DNA of 64,000 nt from a virus: positions 1-64,000 of the IMG/VR virus record IMGVR_UViG_3300031576_000030; one strand, written 5' to 3'. The notes beneath the pieces were generated by a model that was not told the DNA's origin, searched no databases, and saw only the letters and a list, made by a program, of their open reading frames with translations. The position numbers and the translations under genes were made by a program. Positions 3,958-56,586 of the stretch are shown in pieces. How positions within the stretch are numbered: the stretch's first letter is position 1; every line of letters begins with the position of its first letter.

Positions 3958-4956
3958 CTACAAATCGTTGCGGTTGGAGACCACCAGGCCGCCCGAATCC
4001 AGCGTGGTCTCTTTGGCGACCGTCAGCCCCCAGCGCATGGTCGCCAGCCCGCGCACCTGGGCGCGCGTCGGCGTGCCGGATTGAACGCGGCAGTTCTCCA
4101 AACGGAACATCTTGAGCGTGTTCAAAGCCTCGGCCTGTTCTGGGTCGAACACCCGGATATAGGCATTGAACAGCGCCGAGGGCAGGCCCAAATCCCAACC
4201 GGAACCCGAGGTCTGGAATAACTTGTCCAGCGGTTGGTCGTCGGTCGTCAACAGATCGAAATCGCAGGTCACGTCTGGGCTGTCGGACAATGTGCCCACC
4301 AGCGCCCGCCGACCGAGTTCGCGTATCGATTCAATTGGGTACACGCCTCGGACGTTGAAGGCTTGCAACCGGAACGCGCGGGTGGAGGCCAGAGAACCGG
4401 AGGTGAACCAGATGCGGGCTTCCTTGCCGTGGATGCCTCCCGGCGACACATCGTCCAGCGTGCCCCAGACGCTGTGCGGGAAGCCCGAGGTGTACCAGCG
4501 GCCCGTCGTGCCTTCCAGCGTCCAGGTCGCCATGATCGCGTCGCGTACGGTGAAGCGGAACTGCACCTCGGCGATGCGGCAGCCGGTGACTTCCAACTCT
4601 TTGTCGATGGTGCCCGCGTCGTTGCGTCCGATGAGATAGGAGGTGATGCTCTTGCCCAGCAGGTCGCCCAGGTGATAACTCTGCGCGCCAGCCGGGTTGG
4701 GGTTCTTGCCCGCCAGAAGGAAGTCGGCCTCGGTGTTGTGCAGGTTCTCGTCGAACACCACCCGGTACTCCGCCGGGTCCTGGGTGACGCCGATCTTGCC
4801 CACCCGCCCCAACTCGTAGTAGGGGTTGGTGCGGTACTGCACCGTCGGCTCGGCCCGCTGCACGCGGTCGACCCAGATCTCCGAACCGGAGGTGGTGTTG
4901 CGCAGATATAGACCAAAACGGTGGCCGTAGAAGGCTACGGCGGATGGATCGGCCAT
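3958..4956 (-). CDS. putative major tail (tube) protein
   Basis: 332 aa, internal duplication (YELGR / RELGR halves), position after tail-completion genes. Confidence 0.55.
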   Translation of the reverse strand: MADPSAVAFYGHRFGLYLRNTTSGSEIWVDRVQRAEPTVQYRTNPYYELGRVGKIGVTQDPAEYRVVFDENLHNTEADFLLAGKNPNPAGAQSYHLGDLLGKSITSYLIGRNDAGTIDKELEVTGCRIAEVQFRFTVRDAIMATWTLEGTTGRWYTSGFPHSVWGTLDDVSPGGIHGKEARIWFTSGSLASTRAFRLQAFNVRGVYPIESIRELGRRALVGTLSDSPDVTCDFDLLTTDDQPLDKLFQTSGSGWDLGLPSALFNAYIRVFDPEQAEALNTLKMFRLENCRVQSGTPTRAQVRGLATMRWGLTVAKETTLDSGGLVVSNRNDL

Positions 4957-28636: not shown

Positions 28637-29571
28637 CCACCTCGCCCGCCGACATCCTGTTCACCCCTGGCGAAGCGGCCTCGGCTACGCGCAGTATCCT
28701 GGAGCAGCGCCGGGCTAACCCCGCCTCGGGTGTCTATCTACCTATCGATTCGCTCTTGCCGCACCTCCTGCCCCTGGCCCAGGACAACTTGGTGACGATC
28801 CTGGGACGGCCCGGCAACGGCAAGACCTCGCTGATGATGTGGTGGGCGCGACAGGAAGCGCTGCGCATCGCCCAGAACGGAAATCACAAGCAGGCGGTGG
28901 TCTACATCACCTACGAGCAGTCGGTCGAAGACCTGACGGCCTTTGCTCTCGCCGCCCAGAGTGGCGTTCCCATCGACGCCATGGCGCGCGGCACCATCCG
29001 CGACGATCAATGGCAGGAACTGATGGGCCAGTTCGTTCAGCAGGTGGCCCTGCCCATCGTCGTCATCGGCCACAGCATCGCCCGCCGCCAACGGCGACCT
29101 CGCCTGACGCTGACGGCGGTGATCCACGCCCTGGAATACCTGGTGGACAAACTTCAATTCGAGGTGCGCCTGGTGTTCCTGGACTACCTGCAGCGTATCC
29201 CCGGCGAGAAGTACGTCGGCGACCGGCGTATGGAGGTGTCCGAATCGCTCGACCGCTGCAAGGACAGCGCCCTGTCCTTCGGCGCGCCGTGGGTGGTGGC
29301 CGTCCAGGCGCGGCGCGATGTGGACAGCCGACCACTGCCAGTGCCTCTGATGGCCGACGGCCAGGAGACTGCGGGTATCGAGCAGGCCTCGGACGTTGTG
29401 CTGTCGGTGGTGCGCCCCTCTCACTACCGCAAAGAGGGCGAATCGTTCGGAAAGGTGATCGTCTCCGGTCACAGCCAGATGCTGATCACCATCCTCAAGC
29501 AGCACTTGGGACCCGATAACCTAGCCGTCTGGATCAACTTCGATATCCCGGTCAACACGGTGCGGCAGTGA
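28633..29571 (+). CDS. dnaB: DnaB-like replicative helicase (C-terminal RecA domain)
   Basis: GRPGNGKT, VFLDYLQRI, IEQASDVV. Confidence 0.9.
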   Translation: MTTSPADILFTPGEAASATRSILEQRRANPASGVYLPIDSLLPHLLPLAQDNLVTILGRPGNGKTSLMMWWARQEALRIAQNGNHKQAVVYITYEQSVEDLTAFALAAQSGVPIDAMARGTIRDDQWQELMGQFVQQVALPIVVIGHSIARRQRRPRLTLTAVIHALEYLVDKLQFEVRLVFLDYLQRIPGEKYVGDRRMEVSESLDRCKDSALSFGAPWVVAVQARRDVDSRPLPVPLMADGQETAGIEQASDVVLSVVRPSHYRKEGESFGKVIVSGHSQMLITILKQHLGPDNLAVWINFDIPVNTVRQ

Positions 29572-31172
29572 TCAACCTGGCAAGCGTGCTCAACCTGCCG
29601 TATGCCTCGGCCTCGGTGCACTGCTGCATCGTCTCGCCGCCCTACCTGCAGGCGCGCAAATACCACGCCCAGGGCCACCACTACTGGCCGGGGGGGGAAT
29701 ATCTCCCAGTGGCGGGGCGGGACTTCGCCATCGCCATCCCCGAATGGATCGGCGACCTGGGACGTGAGACGACTCAGGAGATGTATATCTTTCACGTGCT
29801 GGAAATGGTCAAAGAGATCATGCGCGTGCTGCGACCGGACGGGACGCTGTGGCTCAACCTGGGCGACGGCCTGGCGCGCGACGAGGCCAAAGGCGTCAAG
29901 TTTGCCGGTTATCCCGACGAGACTCAGGCGCTGGAGGAGAACCGCGGGCTGGACATCCCCCAGGGCTTACAGGGCGGAGATCTGCTGATGACGCCGCACC
30001 GCGTCGCCCAGGCTGTCCAGGCGCTGGGTTTCATCGTGCGCGACGACACGGTGTGGGCCAAACGCAACTGCAAGCCGGAGAGCAACGACGGCTGGGCCTA
30101 CCGCCAGAACACATGCGCCTGCGTCCACGAGACGCAGCGCGCCGCACTGAAAGAGGAGATGGCTCGCCTGGGCGCAGATCGACATACCGCCGGGGCCAAC
30201 GTGCGGCGGCGCATCGCCCGCGCGCCTCAGCCCGATTGCCCGGACTGCCGGGGAACGGGGAAACTTCCGCAGGTAAAGTTTCATCGGGGCAGTTGGCGCT
30301 TCACCCGCTCCCACGAATATCTGTTCCAGGTGGTACACCAGATGGGCTACTACGCCGACCGCGAGGCGGTCAAGGAACCGGCCCAGACCGTATCTATCCA
30401 GCGCGCCAAGCGAGGCGTGTCGGGAAACCACAAGTACACTCTTGGCGCGGCGGGCCAGGCGGTCGAGGGATTGTTCTCGCAGCGCGACGGCGACCCCGCG
30501 AGAATCGTGTCGCATACCCGCAACCCGCGTAGCGTCCAGTGGAGCGACGACCAGTCGGAAATCATCGACTACCTGGCCGAGGAACACCCTCAGGTGTTGG
30601 CGGATTTTATTTCCCGACAGAACGGCAACAGCGTTCTCTTGCTCAAGACGCAGGGGTTTCGCGGCAACCACTTTGCCACGTTCCCGCCCTCGCTCGTCGA
30701 GCGCCTGCTGCTGGCCTCCTGCCCGCAGAAGGTGTGCGACCAGTGCGGAATGCCCTGGGCGCGCGTGTTGGAGTACCACACGCCGGTGGCGGGCGTCGAC
30801 TTCCCCATCGCCCACCATCGAGACGACACCGGCCCGTCCACCGCCGCCGCCCTGCGCAGCCGTACCTCGGCCCTGCGCGCTTCGGGCGGCGAGAAGTACA
30901 TGGCGGCCAAGGCCGAGAATCCGCGCCGCACCGTGGGCTGGCAGAAGACTTGCCACGGCCACGAGTCGCGGGCCGTGCCCGGCATCGTTCTGGATCCGTG
31001 CGCCGGCTCCGGGACGGTCGGCTTCGTGGCGAGGCGAGCGGGACGGCGATTCATCCTGTCGGACATATCGCCGGTGTACATGGACGAGATCGCCCTGGCC
31101 CGCGCAGCGCGCAAGACCAGCCGCAGACTCCTGGCGCAATTGCCGATGTTTCAGGGAAGTGAGGAGGCGTAG
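29568..31172 (+). CDS. N4-C/N6-A DNA methyltransferase (beta order) with Cys-rich inserts
   Basis: SPPY, LWLNLGD, HFATFP, LDPCAGSGT. Confidence 0.9.
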   Translation: MINLASVLNLPYASASVHCCIVSPPYLQARKYHAQGHHYWPGGEYLPVAGRDFAIAIPEWIGDLGRETTQEMYIFHVLEMVKEIMRVLRPDGTLWLNLGDGLARDEAKGVKFAGYPDETQALEENRGLDIPQGLQGGDLLMTPHRVAQAVQALGFIVRDDTVWAKRNCKPESNDGWAYRQNTCACVHETQRAALKEEMARLGADRHTAGANVRRRIARAPQPDCPDCRGTGKLPQVKFHRGSWRFTRSHEYLFQVVHQMGYYADREAVKEPAQTVSIQRAKRGVSGNHKYTLGAAGQAVEGLFSQRDGDPARIVSHTRNPRSVQWSDDQSEIIDYLAEEHPQVLADFISRQNGNSVLLLKTQGFRGNHFATFPPSLVERLLLASCPQKVCDQCGMPWARVLEYHTPVAGVDFPIAHHRDDTGPSTAAALRSRTSALRASGGEKYMAAKAENPRRTVGWQKTCHGHESRAVPGIVLDPCAGSGTVGFVARRAGRRFILSDISPVYMDEIALARAARKTSRRLLAQLPMFQGSEEA

Positions 31173-31361
31173 ATGAGTATCGTGTATCAACTAGAAGTAG
31201 GAATCCAGAGATGGGTGGCCGAGGTCTACGACGGCCCGATTGTCATCCCCGCCGATTCTACCGCGACGCTGGAGTTGCGCCGCCGCGACGGCTCGGTGAT
31301 CGTCCGCATGGAACTTCTCCCGATGGAGATCTACAGCATCGAAGTACGTGGGAACGCCTGA
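31173..31361 (+). CDS. hypothetical protein
   Basis: GGAGG RBS; stop overlaps next start. Confidence 0.55.
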   Translation: MSIVYQLEVGIQRWVAEVYDGPIVIPADSTATLELRRRDGSVIVRMELLPMEIYSIEVRGNA

Positions 31362-32866
31362 TGCACCAGGTCGTGTGCGGAGATGTGACCGACTGGGCCG
31401 CGGCCTACGACGGGCCGCCGTTCCACGCACTGCTCATCGATCCGCCGTACCACCTGGAGAGCATCGCTCGACGTTTCGGCAAGCCCTCGGCCAAGCCCGC
31501 GCGCGGCGCGCTGTATGCCCGCGTCGGGCGCGGTTTCATGGGCCAGGCCTGGGACGGCGGAGATTGGGCCTTCCGCCCCTCCACCTGGAAACTTCTGACA
31601 CGCCATCTCTACCCCGGCGGATTCGTCCTGGCCTTCGCCTCGCCGCGCAACGACTGGCTGATGGCGCATGCCATGCACCGCGCTGGATTGGTGCTTCATC
31701 CCAAGGTCTTCCTGTGGGCCTATGCCCAGGGAGTTCCCAAGGCCACCCGCCTGGACAAGCGACTGCAGGCGATGAACGAAGGTCCCCTGGCGCAGTCGGT
31801 CAGGGACAATCACTTCTACGGCCTGCAGGTGCTGAAGCCCCAGGCCGAGACCATCCTGGTGGCGCAGAAGCCATATCGGGGCCGACCGCTGTTGAATATC
31901 CTGCACACGGGCGCAGGCACGTTCAATATCGGCGCGACTCGCCTGGGCGAGCGCGGCAAGAAATGGTCGCAGGCGCGTGGCGGATTCTGGCAGACTGATG
32001 CCGAGGCCCAGGCGGAACTCGAGACCAATCCCCTCGGTCGCTGGCCGGGCAACCTTCTGCTGTGCCACCTGCCCGATTGCCTGAGCCTGGGCTGGGCATC
32101 GGTCGCGGGGCGGACTCTCAACCGATGGACGGACGGGGCCAAGCCCTTTGGCAACGGCGCGGGACATCCTTACGAGAGTCTGGATACGCCCGACGACTGG
32201 ATCGAAGTGTGGCGCTGCGCAGCGGGCTGCCCGGTGGCGGCGCTCGACGAGCAGGCGGGACCCTTGGCCTCGGGCAAGATGTCCGCAGGCACGAAACGGT
32301 CGACGGACGGCGGCTACAACGGCGCGCAACCGGAGGTCGCCAACGAGCGCGACACCTACGGCGATGCGAGCAGCGCCTCCCGTTTCTTCAAGACCTGCGA
32401 CTGGTCTTACGAGACCTTCGAGAGGTTGAACGAATCCCCCGCCGTCCACTACTCGGCCAAGGCCTCGGTCGCCGAGCGCGAACACGGACTATCGCACTTT
32501 CCAGCCCAATGGTTATCCGACGGACGCCCGACGCCTATCGACAACCAGTTCCAGCGCGGCCAGACCCACAAGCGCAACCCGCACCCATCCGTCAAGCCCA
32601 TCGGCCTGACGCGCTGGCTGGCGGCCCTGCTGCTGCCCCCACCGCTGTACGAGCGGCGTCTGCTCGTGCCGTGCTGCGGTGTGGGTAGCGAGATGATCGG
32701 CGGTCTGTTGGCCGGCTGGGATGAGATCGTCGGCATCGATCTCTCCCCGGAGTACGTCAAGGTGGCCCATGCCCGCCTGGACTGGTGGTCGGCCCAACCG
32801 CGCAGCCAATGGGACGCGCCGGCGGCCTCCGATGCCCCAACGCAACTGGAGATGTTCGGTGCGTGA
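31361..32866 (+). CDS. N6-A/N4-C DNA methyltransferase
   Basis: DPPY, GFMGQAWD, GRWPGN, ASRFF, HPSVKP, LVPCCGVGS. Confidence 0.9.
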   Translation: MHQVVCGDVTDWAAAYDGPPFHALLIDPPYHLESIARRFGKPSAKPARGALYARVGRGFMGQAWDGGDWAFRPSTWKLLTRHLYPGGFVLAFASPRNDWLMAHAMHRAGLVLHPKVFLWAYAQGVPKATRLDKRLQAMNEGPLAQSVRDNHFYGLQVLKPQAETILVAQKPYRGRPLLNILHTGAGTFNIGATRLGERGKKWSQARGGFWQTDAEAQAELETNPLGRWPGNLLLCHLPDCLSLGWASVAGRTLNRWTDGAKPFGNGAGHPYESLDTPDDWIEVWRCAAGCPVAALDEQAGPLASGKMSAGTKRSTDGGYNGAQPEVANERDTYGDASSASRFFKTCDWSYETFERLNESPAVHYSAKASVAEREHGLSHFPAQWLSDGRPTPIDNQFQRGQTHKRNPHPSVKPIGLTRWLAALLLPPPLYERRLLVPCCGVGSEMIGGLLAGWDEIVGIDLSPEYVKVAHARLDWWSAQPRSQWDAPAASDAPTQLEMFGA

Positions 32867-33083
32867 GTGGCTGATTCTGCGGCACGATCCGCACCCGCTG
32901 AGCCTGGAAGGAAAGAAATTCATGCGCTCACAGATCGAGCGTGGCCTACAGCGTGACATCTTTCGTCCTGGCAGCCTGTTCGTCACTTTGAGAAATCCCA
33001 AGCGCTATTTCCTGTTGACCGCCACGGGGCTATTGCAAGTGGAGAAGAACTATGGAAGGCAACCTGCGACCTATACCGCGTAA
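32859..33083 (+). CDS. hypothetical protein
   Basis: GTG start after GGAG; operon continuity. Confidence 0.45.
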   Translation: MREWLILRHDPHPLSLEGKKFMRSQIERGLQRDIFRPGSLFVTLRNPKRYFLLTATGLLQVEKNYGRQPATYTA

Positions 33084-33197
33084 GGGACTGTTCCGCCGAC
33101 CGCCCTCGGCCCTGGCGACTTTCCTGGCCTACATCGTGATCGTCGCCTTGATCTTCCTGGGCTGCAACTTCCTGTCGATAGCCTATTTGGGGGTTCC

Positions 33198-33449
33198 ATG
33201 AACGGCCAGCCGCTCTTGGGCGACCAGGCCCTGCTGCGACAGATGATGCGCGATCTGCAGCGGGCTTGGGCTATTGTCTACGACGACACGGTGCTGCAAA
33301 GCCTGCCGCCGCAGGAGGTGCAGGCGTTAGGGGTATCACTCCGTCATTGTATCGTGTGCGCGACCAATCTGCTGATGCGCTGCGGCGACTACGGACCCTA
33401 CCTGATGGAGGCAAAAGATGATCACGCAAAAATGCCACGTGTGTGGTGA
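33198..33449 (+). CDS. hypothetical protein
   Basis: ORF in operon orientation. Confidence 0.5.
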   Translation: MNGQPLLGDQALLRQMMRDLQRAWAIVYDDTVLQSLPPQEVQALGVSLRHCIVCATNLLMRCGDYGPYLMEAKDDHAKMPRVW

Positions 33450-33621
33450 GGCACGGCCCGGCGACCAGATCGGCGTGCGCATAATCGAAGTGAGCCTGGA
33501 GTACGGTCTGCCGCCGGACACGATGCAGATGAACGTGCGCTACTGCCGCGACAAGCCAGAGTGCACCGCCATGTCCAAGGACTATCGCTTCGGCTTGCGG
33601 CCTCGGCAACCCATCTTTTGA
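33418..33621 (+). CDS. small Cys-rich protein
   Basis: GGAGG RBS, CHVCG..NVRYC..C. Confidence 0.6.
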   Translation: MITQKCHVCGEARPGDQIGVRIIEVSLEYGLPPDTMQMNVRYCRDKPECTAMSKDYRFGLRPRQPIF

Positions 33622-33672
33622 TGGGTATTCATTGACCATTAATCCTGTGCGGGGAAAGAAAGTATATAATCA

Positions 33673-33862
33673 TCTGGGTGGGTAGCGGCGTGGCGAGTTG
33701 ACACGCTAGGCGGTTGCAACCGCCTGTAGTTAGCGGAAGTCGTGCGACTAAAGCCTCCCCTGCCAAGCGTGGACGACGCACGTAAGGCAGAACAAGGGTA
33801 TGCCCAAAGGGAGGACAGCCAGGACGGAATATGTAGAAACGGACACTGGCCTATCCATCAGA
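33673..33862 (+). ncRNA. candidate multi-branched ncRNA with paired ends
   Basis: begins just after TATAAT (33665); 5' TCTGGGTGGGTAG pairs imperfectly with 3' CTATCCATCAGA; internal stems 33708-33725, 33754-33759/33809-33814, 33760-33764/33786-33790. Confidence 0.6.
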
Positions 33863-33909
33863 ATTTCGATGTACAGCATCGGCGGAGAATTCGCTCTGAT
33901 TGGAGAACA

Positions 33910-34149
33910 ATGAACATCAACATTAAGGACTCGCCTTGGCTCACCGAGGCCAATTGGTCAGACGAGCAGGCACGCTATATGCTCATCGCCCTGCTGCATG
34001 AAGGCGTCCTGTCCGCAAGACGTGGCGAGGACGGTGCCTTATTTTTCTCTTACGCTTGGGCATACTATCCAGATGGCGTGTCCCAGTCCGAGGCCATCGC
34101 CGAGTTGGGCGCGATGGAGTTCGATGAGGCGGGGCAAAGAATCGAATGA
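33910..34149 (+). CDS. hypothetical protein
   Basis: GGAGA RBS before ATG 33910. Confidence 0.55.
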   Translation: MNINIKDSPWLTEANWSDEQARYMLIALLHEGVLSARRGEDGALFFSYAWAYYPDGVSQSEAIAELGAMEFDEAGQRIE

Positions 34150-34526
34150 GTCCGCGTAAGTCTATCGGCGACTACCCATCCGACTGGAAGGACATCGCGC
34201 GAACCGTCAAGCAGGCGGCGGGCTGGCAATGTGTGCGCTGCGGTGCTCCCCATGACAGGGAGACGGGCCATGTCCTGACTTGCCATCATCTCGATCTCAA
34301 TCCCGAAAATAATTCGTGGTACAACCTGGCGGCCCTATGTCAGCGTTGTCACCTACACATTCAGGGCAAAGTGATCATGGAGCGCATCTGGATGTTCGAA
34401 CACAGCCCGTGGTTCCGACCCTACGTAGCCGGATTCTATGCTGACCAATTTGGTCTGCCGACCGACCGCGAATACGTCATGGCCCACCTGGACGAGTTGA
34501 TCGCCTTGGGGCAGGGAAGATGCTAG
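34146..34526 (+). CDS. HNH endonuclease-domain protein
   Basis: YPSDW..CVRC..LTCHHLD..N..NLAALCQRCH. Confidence 0.85.
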   Translation: MSPRKSIGDYPSDWKDIARTVKQAAGWQCVRCGAPHDRETGHVLTCHHLDLNPENNSWYNLAALCQRCHLHIQGKVIMERIWMFEHSPWFRPYVAGFYADQFGLPTDREYVMAHLDELIALGQGRC

Positions 34527-36226
34527 CCCAGGCCAACGCAATCCGCATTCCGCTGGCGGCGGAATCTGTCCACTGCGTCACGACCTCGCCGCCGTTCTGG
34601 GGCTTGCGCGCCTATCAGGGCCAGCAATCGTTTGCTTGGCCGGGCGGCTCATTCGCCCCCTGGCCGGGCCTGCCCAAATGCGTCGAGATACCGGGGCCGG
34701 ACGAGAATGAATTGACGCAATGCCAACACAACTTTCAGATTATGGGTAAGAGTACAACCCGTATACGCCACGGCGCAATAGGCGGCCTACATGCAGGGCG
34801 ATCAGTCAATAAACTCTCTCGCAACATTCTGCTCAACCCTAATACCGGCGCATGTTGTCTGAAATGCGGCGCTTGGCGCGGCGGCCTGGGGCAGGAGCCG
34901 CAACCCGAAATGTTTATTTTCCATATCCTGCTGGTCATGCGCGAAGTCCGCCGCGTGCTACGGCCCGATAGCGTGTGCTACTTCGACATTGGGGATTGCT
35001 ATGCCAGCAATGGCAAGGGAAGTAACGTGGGACAAAGAAGTAGCACATTACGAGGCAGAGGAATCAATCAAGGTTCAATGCCACTCAAGATGGACAAGTT
35101 TAGTCTAATACTACCCAAGGGCAATCTCGTCGGCATCCCGGCGATGCTGCTCAAGGCGTTACAGGCCGACGGCTGGATTGTTCGCAACGACCTTGTGTGG
35201 CACAAAGTCGCGCCGATGCCGGAGAGCCTGAACGGGACTCGTTATGAGGCTGCGCCGTGCGGGTGTCTTCAATATGAGGGTAAGCGTAATGAGACATTGA
35301 CAGTAGGTAAGCAAAGGCTGAACAACGGTGACCTTACTTCTGGCAAAACCGTTAGCGACCATGCCGACCCCGACTGCCCCGATTGCGGCGGGACGGGGCG
35401 GGTGGGCGAGCCGGAGTTGCGGCGCGGCAGTTGGAGGCACACGCGCGCGCACGAATTTGTGTTCATGCTCACGAAGCAGATGGGCTACTGGAGCGACAAA
35501 GAGGCGGTGAAGGAGAAAGTCAAGGAGTCTAGTCTAATACGATCTCAAAGCGGCTGGCATGGGCAAAAGGATAATGGCAGATCTGAGCCGGATAATACAG
35601 ATAAAATGGGAACTCGATGGGCGTCCCCATCGGGTCGCAACCCGCGCAGCGTCCTCTCCGCCGAGAATGATTTTGTTCTGGGGGCATGGCTGGCCGAGAA
35701 TGCGCCTGTGCTACTGGCTGAATACCTCGAACAGGCGCGCAATTCTCCTTCGGTAATGTCACCTGCGCCGTCGGCTTATTCGGGCAACCATTACGCCACT
35801 TACCCTCCCGGCCTCATCCAGCCCTTCATCCTGGCCTCCTGCCCGGCGCGCTGCTGCCCGGTGTGCGGCGCGGGCTGGGCCCCGGTGGTGGAGATTCCAG
35901 AGGGCAGGCCGAGAGGCTCCTATCACGATCATAGTCAAGATGGGATTGAATACGGACGAAGGCAAGGCGGCAAAGGGCCAGCCAATCTATCGGGAGATCA
36001 GCAATTGTATGTCACCGGCTACCGTCCAACGTGCGCCCACCCGCATACGGAGCAAGAGGCGCTTCCGGGAATTGTTTTGGATCCATTCTGCGGGAGCGGA
36101 ACCACCGGTTTAGTCGCCCGCGAACTGGGTCGCCGCTTCGTCGGGCTGGACGTATCTCTGCCCTACCTACGCGACCAGGCGATGGGCCGAGCCGAAGTCT
36201 ACACGTTGCCGCTGATGGCGGTGTGA
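34520..36226 (+). CDS. N4-C/N6-A DNA methyltransferase, paralog of 29568-31172
   Basis: SPPF, HYATYP, LDPFCGSGTT; shares RGSWR, RNPRSV, ASCP blocks with 29568 gene. Confidence 0.9.
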   Translation: MLAQANAIRIPLAAESVHCVTTSPPFWGLRAYQGQQSFAWPGGSFAPWPGLPKCVEIPGPDENELTQCQHNFQIMGKSTTRIRHGAIGGLHAGRSVNKLSRNILLNPNTGACCLKCGAWRGGLGQEPQPEMFIFHILLVMREVRRVLRPDSVCYFDIGDCYASNGKGSNVGQRSSTLRGRGINQGSMPLKMDKFSLILPKGNLVGIPAMLLKALQADGWIVRNDLVWHKVAPMPESLNGTRYEAAPCGCLQYEGKRNETLTVGKQRLNNGDLTSGKTVSDHADPDCPDCGGTGRVGEPELRRGSWRHTRAHEFVFMLTKQMGYWSDKEAVKEKVKESSLIRSQSGWHGQKDNGRSEPDNTDKMGTRWASPSGRNPRSVLSAENDFVLGAWLAENAPVLLAEYLEQARNSPSVMSPAPSAYSGNHYATYPPGLIQPFILASCPARCCPVCGAGWAPVVEIPEGRPRGSYHDHSQDGIEYGRRQGGKGPANLSGDQQLYVTGYRPTCAHPHTEQEALPGIVLDPFCGSGTTGLVARELGRRFVGLDVSLPYLRDQAMGRAEVYTLPLMAV

Positions 36227-36228
36227 GA

Positions 36229-36915
36229 ATGGAAAACATTCTTGGCCCATACGTATTGGGCACGACGGACGATGAACATCAGGGGATATACACGGGCGAC
36301 GCATTGGAGTTAGCAGAGGCCATTCCTGATGAGAGCGTGGATTTTATTTTCACTGACCCAGTGTACTGGCATATAGATGATTACCTTTGGTTAGCGGAGG
36401 TTGCTAGCAGAGTTCTCAAGCCCACAGGTACGGTGTTGGCACAGGTGGGGGCACTATTTTGGATCGAGGCACAAAACGCCTTTCGGGAAGTAGGGGAAAT
36501 GGTACATCTGCCGCCCATAATAGAGGTATACCATTTTTCGACCACGGCATTTCAGGTCGGGTCGGTCAGAATCTTATCTGGTTATCAGCCGTACATTTGG
36601 GCTATCAAAACAATGCGGACTCTTTCGATCATGAACAGGAGTTTCGGCAAACGCGACAAAGTTCATCATGAGTGGGGGGATGGGGCAAACTTCTTTTCCC
36701 GATACATTCAGGTATTGACCGAATCAGACCAAGTGATATTCGACCCTTTTACGGGTGGCGGGACAGTCCCCGCTGTGTGTAAGATGTTGGGTCGGAAGTG
36801 GCTGGCATTCGAGATAAATCCAGCGGTAGCGGAACGGGCGCAGGAGCGTGTGCGTAACACCCCGTCGCCACTTTTTACGGCGGAAGTCTACACGCTGCCG
36901 CTGATGGCCGTGTGA
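36229..36915 (+). CDS. compact N6/N4 DNA methyltransferase
   Basis: FTDPVY, RVLKPTG, FDPFTGGGT; lower GC than neighbours. Confidence 0.85.
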   Translation: MENILGPYVLGTTDDEHQGIYTGDALELAEAIPDESVDFIFTDPVYWHIDDYLWLAEVASRVLKPTGTVLAQVGALFWIEAQNAFREVGEMVHLPPIIEVYHFSTTAFQVGSVRILSGYQPYIWAIKTMRTLSIMNRSFGKRDKVHHEWGDGANFFSRYIQVLTESDQVIFDPFTGGGTVPAVCKMLGRKWLAFEINPAVAERAQERVRNTPSPLFTAEVYTLPLMAV

Positions 36916-38078
36916 TGAGATTCGGCAGCCTGTTTTCGGGGATCGGCGGGTTCGATAGAGGCTTTGAACGCATCGGCATGTCGTGTGCCTGGCAGGTGGA
37001 GAATGACCGCTCATGCCAAAAGGTGTTGGCGCACCATTGGCCCAACGTGAAGCGATACGGGGACATCCGGGAGGTAGTAGACCTTGAACCAGTTGACCTT
37101 ATTTGCGGGGGGTTCCCCTGTCAAGACCTGTCAGTGGCCGGAGGCCGCGCGGGCCTGGCTGGAGAACGCAGCGGACTTTGGCACGAGTTCCATCGCATTC
37201 TTACAGAGTGTCGCCCGCGATGGGCTGTCGTCGAGAATGTCCCCGGCCTGCTTTCCAGCAACGGAGGGCGAGATTTTGCCGTCATCCTTCGCGGGCTGGT
37301 CGAATGCGGGTATGGCGTCGCCTATCGGATACTCGACGCTCAGTATTTCGGAGTGGCCCAGCGCCGCCGCCGTGTGTTCATTGTCGGAAGTCTTGGAGAC
37401 GGACGCGTTGCCCAAGCACTTTTTGAGTCCGAAGGCTTGCCGGGGCATACTCCGCCGCGCCGCCAAGAGGGGACGGCCAATACCGGACTTTCTGGAACGC
37501 TGTCTGCGAATGGTGGCGGGATAGACCGACCCGCCGGAAATGCCAACGAGTTAGACTTCTGCGTTGCCGCCCCGCTCCGAGCAGGGCGGGCCAGAGCGGA
37601 TACATTTGGGGACGCTGGCAACGTAGTGGCCTTCCAGCAGAACACGCGCGATGAAGTCAGGCTCATCGGCGGCAATGGAAGCCACGTTGGGGCGTTGTCG
37701 GCAGAGCCGGGAATGAAGCAGCAAAACTACATCGCTGGTGCGATCACTACGCATCAAAGGCGTGGTAATCCTGATAACCAGACGTTTGTGGTTGCTCCGT
37801 CCTTGGTCAGCCATCACAACAACCTAGATAAACAGGCGTATATAGCCTTCGACCCGTTGCGGGCCGGGATCGAGAGGACATTCATTCACCGCACAGGTTC
37901 GTTCGGCGTCCGCCGCCTCACCCCGGTGGAATGCGAGAGACTCCAGGGATTTCCCGATGGATTCACTGACTTGCCGCAATCCGACAGCATGCGCTACCGC
38001 CAATTGGGGAATGCGGTATGCGTTCCGGTAGTGGAGTGGATTGGGCGGCGACTGTGGGTCGCCGAATACAACGAGTGA
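36912..38078 (+). CDS. dcm: C5-cytosine DNA methyltransferase
   Basis: FSGIGG, GGFPCQD, ENV, QRRRR, RRLTPVECERLQGFPD, GNAV. Confidence 0.95.
   Translation: MMRFGSLFSGIGGFDRGFERIGMSCAWQVENDRSCQKVLAHHWPNVKRYGDIREVVDLEPVDLICGGFPCQDLSVAGGRAGLAGERSGLWHEFHRILTECRPRWAVVENVPGLLSSNGGRDFAVILRGLVECGYGVAYRILDAQYFGVAQRRRRVFIVGSLGDGRVAQALFESEGLPGHTPPRRQEGTANTGLSGTLSANGGGIDRPAGNANELDFCVAAPLRAGRARADTFGDAGNVVAFQQNTRDEVRLIGGNGSHVGALSAEPGMKQQNYIAGAITTHQRRGNPDNQTFVVAPSLVSHHNNLDKQAYIAFDPLRAGIERTFIHRTGSFGVRRLTPVECERLQGFPDGFTDLPQSDSMRYRQLGNAVCVPVVEWIGRRLWVAEYNE
37084..37524 (+). CDS. nested alternative-frame protein (M.EcoHK31I beta-polypeptide-like)
   Basis: GGAGGT before TTG; WSNAGM..WPSAAAVCSLSEVLE..FLSPKACRGILRRA..RG. 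Confidence 0.7.
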   Translation: MNQLTLFAGGSPVKTCQWPEAARAWLENAADFGTSSIAFLQSVARDGLSSRMSPACFPATEGEILPSSFAGWSNAGMASPIGYSTLSISEWPSAAAVCSLSEVLETDALPKHFLSPKACRGILRRAAKRGRPIPDFLERCLRMVAG

Positions 38079-51237: not shown

Positions 51238-52863
51238 ATGAATATAGGATTCAATCTACCCCAGGACATGATCACCCAGACCTTTGCCATCCTCGCCAAG
51301 CGGCGGACGGGCAAGACCTACACCGCCTCGGTCATGGCCGAGGAGATGGTCAAAGCCGAATTGCCCTTCGTCGTGCTAGACCCGACCGGGGCCTGGTGGG
51401 GGCTACGGGCCTCCGCCGATGGCAAGCGCGAGGGCCTGCCGGTGATCGTCATCGGCGGCGCGCACGGCGACCTGCCGCTGGAGGCGCATTCGGGCAGGCT
51501 GATCGCGGAGATTGTGGTCGAGCATCCAGGCTGGTACGTGATCGATCTATCGCTGAGCCAATCCAACGCGGAGCAAGACCGCTTCGCCCTGGACTTCGCC
51601 GAACGGATATATCGCCTGAAAGAAAAGCACCGTGAGCCGCTGCACCTGTTCGTCGACGAGGCCGACTCCTTTGCCCCGCAGCGGCCTATCCGAGGCCAGG
51701 AACGCATGTTGGGAGCCTACGAGTCCCTGGTGCGTCGCGGCGGCATCCGGGGGGTGGGCGTGACGCTGATCACCCAACGGCCCGCCGTGCTCAACAAGAA
51801 CGTACTCACCCAGACCGAGGTGCTGATCGTCTTGCAGATCACCGCGCCGCAAGACCAAAAGGCCATCGACGACTGGGTGCGTCAGAACGGCACAAAAGAG
51901 GAACGAGATACTCTGATGGCCTCGCTTGCCTCGCTCAAGCAGGGCGAGGCCTGGGTCTGGTCGCCGTCCTGGTTGGAGAAGTTCGAGCGGGTGAGGATCC
52001 GCCAGCGCGAGACGTTCAACTCCTCGGCCACCCCCAAGGCCGGGGAGCGGGCGGTCGTGCCGCAGCGCTTCGCCGCAGTCGACTTGGAGAAATTGCGCGC
52101 GCGAATCTTGGGTACCACGCAGCGCGTCCAGCAGGAAGACCCTCAGACGCTGCGCGAGGAGATCGCCGCCTTACGCCGACAATTGAACGCCCGCCCGACC
52201 GAGGTGCGCGAGGTGATTAAAGAGGTCTTCCCCGACGCGCTGCGCTCCAGCCTATCCGCCGCCCTGGAAGATGTCCATACCTCGCTGGAGGGTGTTGGCA
52301 CGTCTCTGTCCCATGTGGAGGCGCTGCTCCAGCCGGTAGAGGCCATCCAGCCTGCCGATCACAAGACGGTCAAGGGGCTGCGGCGCGGGGGATGGCAGAT
52401 ACTCGCCACGCTGTCGGCTTACAACAGCCTGACCCCCGCCCAACTTGCCACGCTGTCGTACATGGCGAAGTCAGGCACGTTCCAGACCTACCTCAGCCAA
52501 TTGCGCCAGTTCGGGTTCATCGAGTCAAATGGCAGGGGCCTGGCGATCACCGAACGTGGACTATTCCATTACACGGAGAATCGCGAGCCGCTGCTGCCGC
52601 CACCGGCCACCACACAGGAGATCGTCGCGGCCTGGTCGGTCAAACTCCGCAGCGGTGCGCGGCGCATGCTGGCGGCCTTGATACCCCATTATCCGCGCGG
52701 TATCAGCCGGGGTACCCTGGCGAGCGAGGCGGGCTTGCAGAAGTCGGGTACGTTCCAGACGTACCTGTCCACCTTGAAGCGCCTGGGTCTGGCCGAGACC
52801 GGAATCAACACCGTCAAGGCTAGTCCCACCTTGTTCTTGAATCGAGGAGGCAACCATGAGTGA
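51238..52863 (+). CDS. HerA/FtsK-like (DUF87) ATPase with coiled coil and two C-terminal winged-helix repeats
   Basis: AKRRTGKT, VVLDPTG, LFVDEAD, ITQRP; KSGTFQTYLS twice. Confidence 0.85.
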   Translation: MNIGFNLPQDMITQTFAILAKRRTGKTYTASVMAEEMVKAELPFVVLDPTGAWWGLRASADGKREGLPVIVIGGAHGDLPLEAHSGRLIAEIVVEHPGWYVIDLSLSQSNAEQDRFALDFAERIYRLKEKHREPLHLFVDEADSFAPQRPIRGQERMLGAYESLVRRGGIRGVGVTLITQRPAVLNKNVLTQTEVLIVLQITAPQDQKAIDDWVRQNGTKEERDTLMASLASLKQGEAWVWSPSWLEKFERVRIRQRETFNSSATPKAGERAVVPQRFAAVDLEKLRARILGTTQRVQQEDPQTLREEIAALRRQLNARPTEVREVIKEVFPDALRSSLSAALEDVHTSLEGVGTSLSHVEALLQPVEAIQPADHKTVKGLRRGGWQILATLSAYNSLTPAQLATLSYMAKSGTFQTYLSQLRQFGFIESNGRGLAITERGLFHYTENREPLLPPPATTQEIVAAWSVKLRSGARRMLAALIPHYPRGISRGTLASEAGLQKSGTFQTYLSTLKRLGLAETGINTVKASPTLFLNRGGNHE

Positions 52864-53427: not shown

Positions 53428-53868
53428 ATGAAACTCACCCGGAACCTGATTCATTCGATTTTGCGCCACGCGGGTTTCCCCAGAGCGACGGCAAAGACTC
53501 TGCCATCGGGCTGGCAGAGATGGTCGAAGGGATACATCACCTTGAAGATTGTTCCCGACCCCATCAACGATCACGTTGCGTTACAGTATTCCACCGATCC
53601 GAGCGACAAAGCCATGCTGGAGCGCTACCGGGAGGCGCTCGCCCGACGCAATGTTGAGTCGTTCATCCAGACCTATTATCCGAAAACGCCTTGGGAGTAC
53701 CATACGCTTTACATCAAGATGGAATCGGATGTTGAAGGCGGTAGACACGAGTGCCCGACGTGCAAGCAGGTGTTCTCCACACGCCGAGGCCTATCCGCCC
53801 ACCACACTTGGAAGCACCTCCCACCCTTTCAGGAATCTAATCAGGATAGGCCAGGGCACGACAAATGA
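53428..53868 (+). CDS. protein with C-terminal C2H2 zinc finger
   Basis: HECPTCKQVFSTRRGLSAHHTWKH. Confidence 0.65.
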   Translation: MKLTRNLIHSILRHAGFPRATAKTLPSGWQRWSKGYITLKIVPDPINDHVALQYSTDPSDKAMLERYREALARRNVESFIQTYYPKTPWEYHTLYIKMESDVEGGRHECPTCKQVFSTRRGLSAHHTWKHLPPFQESNQDRPGHDK

Positions 53869-54084
53869 CACCCTACCTCACCGGTCTATACTGGCTCACC
53901 ATCCGGCCCGAATACGAGCCGACTCGTCCGGTTCGCGCTCACAAGAAAGGCATCACCCCATGATGGATGCCTATGCCCTGGGGTTTTTCCACGGGGTGTT
54001 GGGTTGCCTGGCATCCTACGTGATCGCCACCGTCGTGACGGGCTTGGCCTGGTTCGAGTGGATGAAACACAAAGCGTCGGTGAG

Positions 54085-54501
54085 ATGAAGTTCCCTCCCG
54101 ATGCGCGGTTATCCGCCTGGCGCATCCGCGTCCCACCGCTGGCGAGCGATGACAGTTATGGCAACAACGGCGCATTCCTGGTGCCGGGGCCGCATCGGGT
54201 GGCGCTGCAGGTGATCGCTTCCGATGGAATGGGGTGGGATCACGTCAGCGTCAGCCCTCAAGCGCCGCGAACCCCTTTATGGGACGAGATGGACTTCGTG
54301 AAGTCCATCTTTTGGGACGACAAAGAGGCCGTCATGCAACTGCACCCGCCCCGATCTACTTGGGTAAATAACCATCCGTATGTGTTGCACCTATGGCGAC
54401 CTCTGGGCGGGATAGAGATTCCGCTGCCGCCTGAGAACCTGGTGGGGATCAAAGCGGCGGGTACATTCGACGTCAAGTTCAGTGCAACACGATCATCTTA
54501 A
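54085..54501 (+). CDS. conserved phage hypothetical protein
   Basis: NGAF..IASDGMGWDHVSVS..RTPLWDEM..K..FW..QLHP..VNNHP..LHLW. Confidence 0.75.
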   Translation: MKFPPDARLSAWRIRVPPLASDDSYGNNGAFLVPGPHRVALQVIASDGMGWDHVSVSPQAPRTPLWDEMDFVKSIFWDDKEAVMQLHPPRSTWVNNHPYVLHLWRPLGGIEIPLPPENLVGIKAAGTFDVKFSATRSS

Positions 54502-54511
54502 GGAGGTGGAC

Positions 54512-55144
54512 ATGAACAATATCACCACGACCCAGTACGACCTGCACATCACCCTGACCGCGCCGCTGCTGGGGACACAGCCGCCCAAAGACGTGGCGAC
54601 CAAGTACCTAACCAGCCAGGTTCTCGACGCAGCCCGCTTGCCATCGAATGTAGTAGAGGTAGGCGACGACACCGTGGCCGCCGCAGACGAGTTGGAGACT
54701 CTGCCCGAACTGCTGGAGCGCGGCACGACCGCCTTCCACACCCTGGACGGTCGGCCCATCCTGTACAACTACCACGTCAAGGGCTTTCTCAAGGAGGCGG
54801 GTTCGGTCTTCAACGGCCTGCGCGGAGTCAAGAACCTGCGCTCCAAGATCGACTCGTTGGTGTTCGTGACGCCCCGACGCATCGAGTTGTACCACGACCA
54901 GCCGATGGGGATTCTGGAACGGCCTTTGCGGGCCATGACCGCCCAAGGCCCGCGCACAGCGCTCGCCCGTTCCGAGATGTTGCCGGAGGGGACACGCTTT
55001 GACTGCCTCTTGGAAGTCTACGACGGCCCGATCAGCCATCTACTGCTGACCGACCTCCTCAGTTATGGAGAAAAAAAGGGGCTGGGTCAGTGGCGGAACT
55101 CTTCCGTCTACGGCACGTTTTCCTTCGTCCTCGTCAAGCGATAG
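54512..55144 (+). CDS. stand-alone Cas7/RAMP-superfamily protein
   Basis: AAGGAGGT RBS; beta1 HITLTAPLLGT, PILYNYHVKGFLKEA helix, ERPLRA..RSE thumb, C-terminal G-rich loop GEKKGLGQWRNSSVYGTF. Confidence 0.8.
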   Translation: MNNITTTQYDLHITLTAPLLGTQPPKDVATKYLTSQVLDAARLPSNVVEVGDDTVAAADELETLPELLERGTTAFHTLDGRPILYNYHVKGFLKEAGSVFNGLRGVKNLRSKIDSLVFVTPRRIELYHDQPMGILERPLRAMTAQGPRTALARSEMLPEGTRFDCLLEVYDGPISHLLLTDLLSYGEKKGLGQWRNSSVYGTFSFVLVKR

Positions 55145-55430
55145 CGAGGTATCGTATCGTGAGTGCCCGGTGTTGCATTGCGTTGCATGGGCATGGTGAG
55201 GTGGAGTGAAGCGTTGCTCTGGCAGGGTGAAGCAGGGTGTAGTCCGGCATAGCAACCGCAGAGTATGGACGAGTGTTGCGAACGCGATGTGGAGTAAGGC
55301 GCCGTTTAGCGCAGGTATAGTTCGGTGTTTCGCAGCACCAGCGAGGTTGTGCCAAGTGGAGCGAAGGCGCAGTACGGTTTGGCAGCGCGAGGGCAAAGCC
55401 AGGTGATGTACCGCTCAGGTATAGCGGGGT
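55141..55430 (+). ncRNA. periodic NNNGY pentamer array, candidate guide RNA(s) of the RAMP protein
   Basis: 56 contiguous units (46 x 5 nt, 10 x 6 nt), 54 end in GT/GC; starts at RAMP stop codon; no credible ORF. Confidence 0.8.
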
Positions 55431-55599
55431 GGGAATCACCGGCATACTGACCATAACCTTTGTGGTCTTGAAGTTAGCCCACGTGATTGATTGGTCGTGG
55501 GTGTGGGTACTTGCCCCCGCGTGGGGGACGTGCTTGCTGATACCCTTGTTCGTGGCGACTTTCATCGCCTTGACCTTCCTGTTGGAACTGCGGAAGTGA
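55429..55599 (+). CDS. small two-TM membrane protein (not in ORF track)
   Basis: GTG start; GITGILTITFVVLKLAHVIDWSWVWVLAPAW motif of a common phage membrane family. Confidence 0.7.
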   Translation: MGITGILTITFVVLKLAHVIDWSWVWVLAPAWGTCLLIPLFVATFIALTFLLELRK

Positions 55600-55607
55600 A
55601 ACACAGT

Positions 55608-55636
55608 CGGGCCGGGAGTAAGTCATTCCCGGCCCG
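55608..55636. terminator. hairpin between convergent transcription units
   Basis: CGGGCCGGGA/TCCCGGCCCG 10-bp stem. Confidence 0.75.
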
Positions 55637-55644
55637 CGTGGTGA

Positions 55645-56046
55645 TCAGGGCTTGCGCGATGCGGTCAGCGCATCCACCACGCCCTTGCCCAAAATCGCCA
55701 TGACCAGGAACTCACTGAGCAGGGTCACGGCGTCCTCGGGGATGCTGATGCCCACGGCGGTGAGGCCGGAAACGCCCAACTGGGCCAACACTGCGATGAG
55801 GGCCATCCTCATCTTCTGCCCCTTGAGTACCGCGATGCCACTGGAGTAGTTGGGCTTGTAAGCCCCCTCGAAGATAGCCCCCACCACCACTGCCCAGGCA
55901 GCGGTGATGGCGGTCGTCACCGCCTCCACCGGCAGGGCGATCCCGGCCCTCGGTGCCAACAGCCCCAGGGCCGTCACCACCAGAGCGACTACGACGGTCG
56001 TGACCTCGTTGCGCTTCAGGAAATTGCCAATCGCGCTTGTGCTCAT
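55645..56046 (-). CDS. holin-like membrane protein
   Basis: four hydrophobic segments; last gene of lysis cluster. Confidence 0.6.
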   Translation of the reverse strand: MSTSAIGNFLKRNEVTTVVVALVVTALGLLAPRAGIALPVEAVTTAITAAWAVVVGAIFEGAYKPNYSSGIAVLKGQKMRMALIAVLAQLGVSGLTAVGISIPEDAVTLLSEFLVMAILGKGVVDALTASRKP

Positions 56047-56058
56047 GTTTGCCTCCGT

Positions 56059-56586
56059 TTACTGATAGGGCAGCGCCGCACACTGTTGCGGCCTCTGCTG
56101 CCTCGGGTACTGCCTCCAGATCGGATGCCGCTCCCCACTCCAATCAAACACCAGTGGAGGCCGGTAGATACGCGGTGTTTCCCAATCCTCGGTCGGCGGC
56201 GGACACGCGCCGAACCACACCTGCCCCTGTACTCCTGTCTCAAAACCCAATCGGCGAGCCAGCCAGCGCGGCACCTCGGCCACCTCGCCGTTCACGTAGA
56301 CGTTTCGCCAGAAGTGATGCCTGGCGCTGGTGTCCAGCACCAAGCAGGGTCCAAACCAAGGCCGGTCGCTCACCCTTACCCAGGCGATGCGCCCCAAGTG
56401 CGCCGGGGACATGGCCGAGATGCCGCAACGTTGGCGATAGGGCCGCAGGTCGTACCCCCGAAACCATGCCTGATCTTCCACCGTCTGCTGCGCCCCATAA
56501 TTCACCAGAAGCCCCATCGACCACTGCGGCTGCGGCGTGAGCCAGGTCGTGACGGCAACGAGGGTCGCCAAGGTACTTGCAATCAC
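56059..56586 (-). CDS. secreted RlpA-like (double-psi barrel) protein
   Basis: signal peptide; CGISAMSPAHLGRIAWV..GPCLVLD..EV. Confidence 0.5.
   Translation of the reverse strand: MIASTLATLVAVTTWLTPQPQWSMGLLVNYGAQQTVEDQAWFRGYDLRPYRQRCGISAMSPAHLGRIAWVRVSDRPWFGPCLVLDTSARHHFWRNVYVNGEVAEVPRWLARRLGFETGVQGQVWFGACPPPTEDWETPRIYRPPLVFDWSGERHPIWRQYPRQQRPQQCAALPYQ

What the first reader, a model, noticed from the sequence alone, without database searches (positions are those of the whole stretch)
54512..55430. Stand-alone Cas7/RAMP gene with an adjoining periodic NNNGY array: candidate minimal non-CRISPR RNA-guided system
Seen: a 210-aa protein with RAMP hallmarks (N-terminal beta strand/LLG, KGFLKEA helix, thumb, C-terminal GLGQWRNSSVYGTF glycine-rich loop). 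It is followed from its stop codon by 290 non-coding nt that parse without gaps as ATAGC GAGGT ATCGT ATCGT GAGTGC CCGGT GTTGC ATTGC GTTGC ATGGGC ATGGT GAGGT GGAGT GAAGC GTTGC TCTGGC ... AAAGC CAGGT GATGT ACCGC TCAGGT ATAGC GGGGT. Of 56 units, 54 end in GY (20 GGY, 18 AGY, 9 TGY, 7 CGY) while the leading bases vary. No cas1/5/6/8/10 or repeat-spacer array was found in the window. Established: Cas7 proteins polymerise on RNA with a fixed per-subunit step. Inference: each subunit grips one (N)GY anchor and displays the variable bases, so the RNA encodes a discontinuous target sequence, e.g. for silencing competing phages or host genes. I recall, unverified, reports of phage RAMP + GGY/NN repeat RNA loci (VIPR); this would be a relaxed-anchor variant.
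Basis: partly seen in the sequence, partly recalled or inferred. Interest (0 to 1): 0.95.

Follow-up and report, generated by a model that had tools for sequence, protein, structure and literature searches.

The report
Phage VIPR system, GY-anchor array
A 75-kb uncultured phage carries a small Cas7-like protein gene followed by a 290-base five-letter-repeat guide-RNA array. Together they are a clear new example of the VIPR RNA-guided DNA-silencing systems first described in 2026 preprints, not a new kind of system.

Summary
Bases 55141-55430 tile into 56 units of 5 or 6 nt, and 54 of them end in GY. Dinucleotide shuffles give 32 +/- 1.7, with a maximum of 37.

The 210-aa protein folds as a Cas7-type RAMP. 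Its family profile aligns over the full length with the SUSP1 Vipr protein (hhalign 92%, E 6e-7).

In 54 of 68 viral loci with a family member, a same-strand GY period-5 array of at least 150 nt lies beside the gene. None was found in 969 kb of control phage DNA.

The locus is therefore a VIPR system (bioRxiv 10.64898/2026.04.26.720920 and .720927). It is of the less-studied form with YNNNG-type repeats, no tail and no accessory gene.

Details added here:
- Ten hexamers, spaced every 5-7 units (P<5e-6), cut the array into about ten segments of 26-36 nt. The same NNNGGY punctuation is seen across the family.
- The two SUSP1 residues that read the first G of GGY (H17, D177) are T/S and Q in this family. 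That fits the relaxed anchor.

Targets were not found, and transcription could not be tested. This scan has found such loci before on other DNA (at least 22 notes).

Verdict: new member of a known kind.

The parts
54501..54506 (+). Ribosome-binding site AGGAGG, 5 nt before the vipr ATG. It overlaps the stop codon of the upstream DUF7694 gene.
   Evidence: Read directly from the sequence.
54512..55144 (+). vipr gene: 210-aa minimal RAMP (Cas7-like) protein of the Vipr family. G-loop GLGQWRN at residues 190-196; thumb beta-hairpin at about 133-157.
   Evidence: AF2 pLDDT 82. Foldseek top hits are all Cas7/Csm3/Cas7-11, E about 1e-7. BFVD top hit is a 'Cas system-associated RAMP superfamily protein' of a siphovirus, E 1e-18. 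hhalign of the family against SUSP1 Vipr gives 92%, E 6e-7, over 179 columns. The family profile hits PDB 36pp 'SUSP1 Vipr protein' and type VII Cas7.
55141..55430 (+). vrRNA array: 56 units, made of 44 NNNGY pentamers, 10 hexamers and 2 non-GY pentamers. It has no invariant 3' tail and fills the whole intergenic space.
   Evidence: As RNA it is not more structured than shuffles (z +0.8). No Rfam match.
55161..55420 (+). Ten punctuating hexamers at 55161, 55187, 55218, 55254, 55280, 55311, 55337, 55363, 55389 and 55415 (each 6 nt). They define segments of 26, 26, 31, 36, 26, 31, 26, 26, 26 and 26 nt (5n+1), which are the putative individual guides.
   Evidence: Gaps between hexamers are 5-7 units. 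None of 200,000 random placements has all gaps in 5-7, and the fraction with spread as small as observed is 5e-6. Autocorrelation peaks at lags 21 and 26. Across the family there are 940 hexamers, 89% with G before GY, and the commonest gap is 5-6 units.
55429..55599 (+). Small membrane-protein ORF (56 aa) directly after the array, on the same strand. It is context only and not conserved with vipr.
   Evidence: phrog_1374, E 7.7e-15. No counterpart in 88 related loci.
55608..55636 (.). GC-rich hairpin with a 12-bp stem between convergent gene blocks. It is the likely end of the transcript that carries vipr and the array.
   Evidence: dG -29.5 kcal/mol, z -4.8 against shuffles. The consensus terminator scan found nothing because there is no T run. 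The terminator role is inferred.

Best explanation
This is a VIPR (Viral Interference Programmable Repeat) system of a phage. It consists of one vipr gene and one downstream vrRNA array.

Inferred mechanism, by homology to the SUSP1 system:
- The array is transcribed together with vipr.
- Vipr protomers polymerise on the RNA, one per 5-nt unit.
- The G-loop Trp and Arg (W194, R195) and the thumb hold the constant G-Y.
- The variable bases that follow are displayed and pair with double-stranded DNA in a gapped register.
- This silences genes of competing mobile elements.

How this clade differs from SUSP1:
- Only GY is constant, not GGY.
- The two residues that read the first G in SUSP1 (H17, D177) are T/S and Q here.
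- NNNGGY-type hexamers every 5-7 units cut the array into about ten short segments of 26-36 nt. These are probably the separate guides of a 'staggered' array.
- There is no 3' tail and no conserved accessory (vap) gene.

Shown here: the periodicity, the fold, homology to Vipr, the conserved gene-array pairing and the hexamer punctuation.

Inferred: transcription, processing at the hexamers, RNA binding, DNA targeting and the biological target.
For: Periodicity is far above chance and unique in the genome.

Fold and homology. The protein has a Cas7-type fold. The family profile aligns with SUSP1 Vipr over the full length (92%, E 6e-7). The same profile finds only the Vipr ORF in the 90.7-kb SUSP1 genome and hits PDB 36pp 'SUSP1 Vipr protein'.

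Gene-array pairing. A same-strand GY period-5 array of at least 150 nt lies next to the gene in 54 of 68 IMG/VR loci, against 0 in 969 kb of control IMG/VR DNA. Arrays were also seen in at least 13 of 20 earlier loci, 19 from genome contigs and 1 viral.

Published mechanism. One protomer binds per repeat, the GGY is sequestered, NN is displayed, and the target is read with a 1-nt skip. YNNNG, NNNGG and NNNNG repeats and staggered arrays are also described.

Residues. The G-loop is GLGQWRN here and GVGDWRP in SUSP1, and LG[TS] stands in place of LSH, in all 21 family members checked. SUSP1 repeats carry G before GY in most units, while this family has 27% G there.

Context. The record is a phage genome with 127-bp direct terminal repeats and phage genes. 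No CRISPR array or Cas1 is present.

Array properties. The array RNA is unstructured, as expected for a protein-coated guide. The first two variable bases fit the phage's codon positions 1-2 better than six other dinucleotide models, by about 6 bits over the genome background, which is weak support.
Against: No target was found under any skip rule in the phage itself, in 88 related loci or in IMG/VR.

The segments have only 5-7 units, shorter than the 9-16 repeats of the tested vrRNAs. If only two bases per unit are read, that leaves 10-14 specified bases.

The preprint states that staggered arrays, unlike the other architectures, were not confirmed by sRNA-seq.

Sequence similarity to SUSP1 Vipr is remote: phmmer finds nothing and the profile E-value against the PDB entry is only 0.087.
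Confidence: 0.82

Rival explanations
1. It is a Vipr-family protein with its RNA array, but it uses a different code from the published one. One option is three bases read per unit, because the first-G pocket is lost. Another is that RNA rather than DNA is the target.
For: The G1-contact residues H17 and D177 are replaced throughout the family. The third variable base is not fixed. Segments of 5-7 units would carry too little information with two bases per unit.
Against: The third base is purine-rich (A 17, G 14 of 44) and does not resemble codon position 3 of this phage, which is 73% G+C. Exact searches of the 7-unit segment as triplets with 0 or 1 skipped base found nothing in IMG/VR. Triplet rules gave no excess over shuffles locally. 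W194 and R195 are conserved, which points to the same binding mode.
Confidence: 0.13
2. It is a remnant or decoy of a CRISPR-Cas system: a solo Cas7 kept by the phage, for example to sequester host crRNA or Cas proteins. On this view the periodic tract is unrelated or acts as an RNA mimic.
For: The closest solved folds are CRISPR Cas7, Csm3 and type VII Cas7.
Against: There is no repeat-spacer array, no Cas1 and no Pfam, NCBIfam or PADLOC Cas match. The gene travels with a 5-nt array in most relatives and with no other conserved gene. It is a full-length homolog of a tested Vipr protein.
Confidence: 0.03
3. The tract acts as DNA, as a phased G-rich protein-binding or bending element such as an origin, a packaging site or an operator array, and not as an RNA guide.
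For: A 5-bp period is half a helical turn. Transcription was not shown here.
Against: The GY motif is strand-specific and co-oriented with the RAMP gene in 54 of 68 loci. The variable bases differ completely between relatives while the GY frame is kept. RAMP proteins bind single-stranded RNA, and the SUSP1 homolog was co-purified with its repeat RNA.
Confidence: 0.02

Closest known systems
VIPR with 'staggered' vrRNA arrays and alternative YNNNG repeats (bioRxiv 10.64898/2026.04.26.720920, Results, Methods 'VIPR type classification', legend of fig. S18)
   Same: A phage-borne minimal RAMP next to a long, tail-less array of 5-nt units in which only G-Y is constant. The units are cut into short pieces with a one-base offset, giving 5n+1 segments here.
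   Different: The figures and tables are not available here, so the type (I-VII) cannot be assigned, and I could not check that the published boundaries are the hexamers. The preprint says this architecture was not confirmed by sRNA-seq.
Type II VIPR of Escherichia phage SUSP1 (Vipr ALH47069.1, Vap1, four vrRNAs; cryo-EM in bioRxiv 10.64898/2026.04.26.720927, PDB 36pp)
   Same: Homologous protein of about 200 aa with RRM core, thumb and a G-loop with conserved W-R. Five-nt repeat RNA lies beside the gene. Both are phage-encoded.
   Different: SUSP1 has NNGGY repeats, 9-16 per vrRNA, each followed by a structured tail with a pseudoknot, plus the accessory gene vap1. The window has NNNGY units, T22 and Q193 in place of H17 and D177, one continuous hexamer-punctuated array, no tail and no conserved neighbour gene.
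Class 1 CRISPR backbone proteins (Cas7 family: Csm3, type VII Cas7, Cas7-11)
   Same: Same fold (TM about 0.55, E about 1e-7). Both polymerise on RNA with a fixed step and use a thumb to flip bases (established knowledge).
   Different: The step is 6 nt on a contiguous spacer flanked by repeats, and other Cas proteins and a CRISPR array are needed. None of these is present here.

Membership tests
VIPR system | A Vipr protein: a minimal single-RRM RAMP with thumb and glycine-rich loop, homologous to published Vipr proteins | tested here: met
   AF2 model plus Foldseek hits to Cas7-type RAMPs. hhalign of the family against SUSP1 Vipr gives 92%, E 6e-7, over the full length. The family profile hits PDB 36pp 'SUSP1 Vipr protein'.
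VIPR system | A tandem pentanucleotide-repeat tract (GGY/NN or the related YNNNG, NNNGG or NNNNG) in the intergenic space beside vipr, on the same strand | tested here: met
   Fifty-four of 56 units end in GY, about 13 sd above shuffles. It is the YNNNG type named in the preprint's Methods. The pairing is conserved in 54 of 68 viral relatives against 0 in control DNA.
VIPR system | No CRISPR array and no other cas genes at the locus | tested here: met
   TRF finds no array. There is no Cas1 or Pfam RAMP match in the 75-kb genome. The neighbours have no PADLOC Cas hits.
VIPR system | Mostly carried by phages or proviruses | tested here: met
   The record is an IMG/VR virus with direct terminal repeats of 127 bp. 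Phage genes surround the locus.
VIPR system | The repeat RNA is expressed and co-purifies with Vipr | not testable with these tools
This needs sRNA-seq and a pull-down.
VIPR system | Gapped recognition of double-stranded DNA (1-nt skip rule), with targets in competing mobile elements | tested here: inconclusive
   No run of matched units exceeded shuffles under skips of 0-3 in the phage itself or in related loci. Only a weak codon-position 1-2 signal was seen.
VIPR type II (SUSP1 / P. fulva) | GGY anchor, 9-16 repeats per vrRNA, invariant structured 3' tail, vap1 gene | tested here: not met
   The anchor is GY only. There is no tail and no structure. No neighbour gene is conserved. The locus is therefore not type II; which other type it is cannot be told without the preprint's figures.
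CRISPR-Cas class 1 (Cas7 as part of an effector complex) | Repeat-spacer array plus partner Cas proteins (Cas5, Cas6, large subunit, adaptation genes) | tested here: not met
   Sequence libraries give no Cas family for the protein.

The most novel reading that the evidence does not exclude
This vap-less clade may run a variant of the VIPR code. The pocket for the first G is lost (T22 and Q193 for H17 and D177), and GGY hexamers serve as start or stop marks for very short guides of 5-7 units. Under this reading either three bases are read per unit, or many low-information guides act together. Either would be a recognition rule not yet described or tested.
Probability: 0.15. Interest if true: 0.6.

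Novelty: new member of a known kind. Interest (0 to 1): 0.33.

Why it matters
VIPR is a recently described, compact, programmable system that binds DNA under RNA guidance, and it may be ancestral to CRISPR backbone proteins. This locus is a clean single-gene, single-array example in a complete 75-kb phage genome. It belongs to the architecture the preprints left untested: GY-only anchor, hexamer-punctuated 'staggered' array, no tail and no accessory gene.

The family is large: 1,435 clusters at 90% identity and 1,369 at 50% identity. The residue-to-motif correspondence found here (D to Q and H to T/S alongside GGY to NGY) gives a direct, testable handle on how anchor specificity is set.

It does not change the picture of what VIPR is.

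Tried and rejected
Sequence libraries
- phmmer against PDB gives only chance laminin hits.

RNA families
- Rfam, with hammerhead ribozymes in mind, finds nothing over 53500-56500.

Target searches (all null)
- Runs of matched units under skips 0-3, for N1N2, N2N3 and NNN, against the phage genome plus 20 loci gave a best run of 6 units, equal to shuffles.
That is what chance should give for only 14 specified bases (my estimate). The fetched loci showed no convergence of other guides; the excess for the first guide is an AT-composition effect.
- The same segment as contiguous triplets, or as triplets with one skipped base, gave 0 hits.
- All 79 family arrays (5,810 units) against 1.2 Mb of related loci gave a maximum of 8 units, about what chance predicts.

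Accessory gene
- None of the window's neighbours recurs in the 88 related loci, except one distant DUF7694 copy.
- In the 20 earlier loci plus the window's own locus, all-against-all clustering of ORFs found nothing shared beyond vipr.

Coding reading of the tract
- Rejected: a period of 5 is not a coding period, and the antisense ORFs are of the kind common in high-GC DNA.

Tools that could not be used

Not attempted
- Complex prediction, because it would not change the verdict.

Full report
**1. Observation**

The region was read directly. The gene starts at ATG 54512, with AGGAGG at 54501-54506 upstream. It ends at TAG 55142-55144 and encodes 210 aa.

From the stop codon to 55430, the + strand tiles without gaps into 56 units of 5 or 6 nt, and 54 of them end in G-pyrimidine. 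One thousand dinucleotide-preserving shuffles give 32.0 +/- 1.7 GY-ending tiles, with a maximum of 37. Half of all successive GY-GY distances are 5 nt, against 11% in shuffles. Base autocorrelation peaks at lags 5 and 10, and more strongly at 21 and 26. No other stretch of the 74,968-bp genome shows this on either strand.

**2. The protein**

Sequence libraries give no family: Pfam, PHROGs, NCBIfam and PADLOC all return nothing. The protein nevertheless has many relatives of about 195 aa:
- 1,435 clusters at 90% identity
- 1,369 clusters at 50% identity

An AlphaFold2 model built on 30 relatives has mean pLDDT 82. It shows an RRM-like core, a long beta-hairpin at about residues 133-157 (the thumb), a helical insertion at 26-71, and a glycine-rich loop at 190-201.

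Foldseek against the PDB returns only Cas7-type RAMPs at the top: type VII Cas7, Csm3 and Cas7-11, with E about 1e-7 and TM about 0.55. The best viral match is annotated as a RAMP superfamily protein of a siphovirus (E 1e-18).

**3. Link to a published system**

A literature search found two 2026 preprints on VIPR systems. They report the following:
- A minimal RAMP, Vipr, binds vrRNAs made of alternating GGY/NN pentanucleotides, with one protomer per repeat.
- The GGY is sequestered. The NN bases pair with double-stranded DNA while skipping every third target base.
- The systems are mostly phage-borne and repress competing mobile elements.
- Seven types exist. Alternative repeats NNNGG, YNNNG and NNNNG occur, and so do 'staggered' arrays.

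I fetched the reference phage SUSP1.
- A profile of 88 diverse members of the window's family finds a single place in its 90.7-kb genome, the Vipr ORF.
- Profile-sequence comparison aligns the two proteins over their full length: 179 columns, probability 92%, E 6e-7.
- The same profile hits the PDB entry named 'SUSP1 Vipr protein' and type VII Cas7.

The protein is therefore a remote but full-length Vipr homolog.

**4. The gene and array travel together**

In 20 loci with family members, 19 from bacterial genome contigs and 1 viral, at least 13 have a same-strand GY period-5 tract touching the gene.

In 68 IMG/VR loci, 54 have such a tract of at least 150 nt. It lies directly downstream in most, and directly upstream in one subgroup. 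The control was 115 unrelated IMG/VR loci (969 kb) fetched by a chance pattern, and these have none.

No other gene is shared. None of the window's neighbours recurs in the 88 related loci, apart from one distant DUF7694 copy. All-against-all clustering of ORFs in the first 20 loci plus the window's own locus found nothing shared beyond vipr. In this clade the module is one gene plus one array, with no accessory (vap) gene.

**5. Anatomy of the array**

The ten 6-nt units are not scattered. They fall at units 5, 10, 16, 23, 28, 34, 39, 44, 49 and 54. The gaps between them are 5, 6, 7, 5, 6, 5, 5, 5 and 5 units. No random placement out of 200,000 has all gaps in 5-7, and the chance of a spread as small as observed is 5e-6. 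This explains the lag-26 peak.

The hexamers cut the array into segments of 26, 26, 31, 36, 26, 31, 26, 26, 26 and 26 nt (5n+1), plus two trailing pentamers.

Across 78 related arrays there are 4,030 GY pentamers and 940 GY hexamers. The hexamers have G before GY in 89% of cases (consensus about RRNGGY), and the commonest gap between them is 5-6 units. The full GGY of the published motif survives only in the punctuation units.

[quoted passage not shown] I could not see the figure, and the preprint says this architecture was not confirmed by sRNA-seq.

The array has no invariant tail, no Rfam match, and no more structure than shuffles (z +0.8). That is as expected for an RNA that is coated rather than folded.

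The array is followed by a 56-aa membrane-protein ORF (phrog_1374) and then a 12-bp GC hairpin at 55608-55636 (z -4.8). Beyond that, genes converge from the other strand. Co-transcription of vipr and the array is inferred from this layout.

**6. Why the anchor is relaxed (inference)**

The structure preprint assigns the contacts as follows:
- First G of GGY: H17 and D177
- Second G: R138 of the thumb and W178
- Pyrimidine: R179, among others

In the alignment, W178 and R179 correspond to W194 and R195. These are kept in nearly all 21 family members checked; two have F for W. D177 corresponds to Q193, and H17 to T22, which is T or S in all but one member.

SUSP1's own repeats carry G before GY in most units. 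This family has 27% G at that position.

The match between lost contacts and lost base conservation is consistent across the family. It is still a correlation between two clades, not a test.

**7. Targets**

None was found.
- Exact runs of matched units under skips 0-3, with two or three displayed bases, did not exceed shuffles in the phage itself or in related loci. This agrees with the preprint's finding of no self-targeting.
- The longest segment (7 units, 14 specified bases under the 1-nt-skip rule) gave more than 115 IMG/VR hits. That is about what chance should give for only 14 specified bases (my estimate). The other guides did not converge on those loci.
- Read as triplets, the same segment gave no hit.

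The first two variable bases fit the phage's codon positions 1-2 better than six alternative dinucleotide models, by about 6 bits over the genome background. This agrees with the published wobble-skip pattern but is weak. The first variable base is also more purine-rich (35 of 44) than codon position 1 would give.

With 10-14 specified bases per segment, target finding needs a restricted search space, namely the host and its other phages, which I do not have.

**8. Context**

The record is an IMG/VR virus genome with 127-bp direct terminal repeats and about 60% G+C. Nearby genes include a HerA/FtsK-type ATPase, an M23 peptidase and four DNA methyltransferases. No CRISPR array, Cas1 or Pfam RAMP is present.

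**9. Verdict**

The locus is a VIPR system, a kind already published, so it is a new member of a known kind. The 'relaxed anchor' is already listed in the preprint as YNNNG repeats.

This scan has noted such loci on other DNA at least 22 times, including the hexamer punctuation. I saw the punctuation in my own parse before reading those notes, and I treat them as leads only.

What remains open and mildly interesting is the untested architecture. The guide boundaries, the number of bases read per unit, and the role of the Q and T substitutions are all unknown.

Noticed in passing
window 29568-38078 (+): Four genes matching phage DNA methyltransferase families lie close together (29568-31172, 31211-32866, 34520-36226, 36912-38078). 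This is probably broad anti-restriction protection of the phage DNA.
   Followed up: no
window 51238-52863 (+): A HerA/FtsK-type ATPase of 541 aa has matches to PHROG 'terminase large subunit' and to PADLOC HerA. Its C-terminal half holds two copies of a GTFQTYLS...L..GL/FIE motif that look like paired winged-helix domains. It lies three genes upstream of vipr and is not conserved with it.
   Followed up: partly
window 54512-55144, residues about 45-64: The window's Vipr carries an insertion of about 14 residues in the helical bundle relative to most relatives (210 aa against about 196 aa). The model has pLDDT below 50 there. In SUSP1 the helical bundle contacts the skipped target base.
   Followed up: no
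L153, L156, L166, L172, L174, L176-L179, L183, L187-L192, L194, L196, L200; also L018, L020: In one subgroup of relatives, mostly contigs from the same large metagenome, the array lies directly upstream of the gene instead of downstream, still on the same strand.
   Followed up: no
L009, L014, L017 (Subdoligranulum / Gemmiger MAGs): These family members (31-35% identity) show no GY period-5 tract within 4 kb. They share a small upstream ORF with each other and with L020, which does have an upstream array. They may be a sub-clade with a different repeat motif or an accessory gene.
   Followed up: no
array units, window 55141-55430 and 78 related arrays: The first variable base after GY is strongly purine-biased: 35 of 44 here and 71% across the family, mostly A. 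This is more than codon position 1 would give and suggests a further weak constraint on the unit.
   Followed up: partly
L001 about 4500-4600; L003 about 4790-4880: Whole hexamer-bounded cassettes of 31-36 nt are duplicated in tandem in related arrays. This fits segments being the unit of gain and loss.
   Followed up: no
genome ends (G000 1-127 and 74842-74968): A direct terminal repeat of 127 bp is present, so the record looks like a complete genome even though CheckV estimates 74% completeness.
   Followed up: yes
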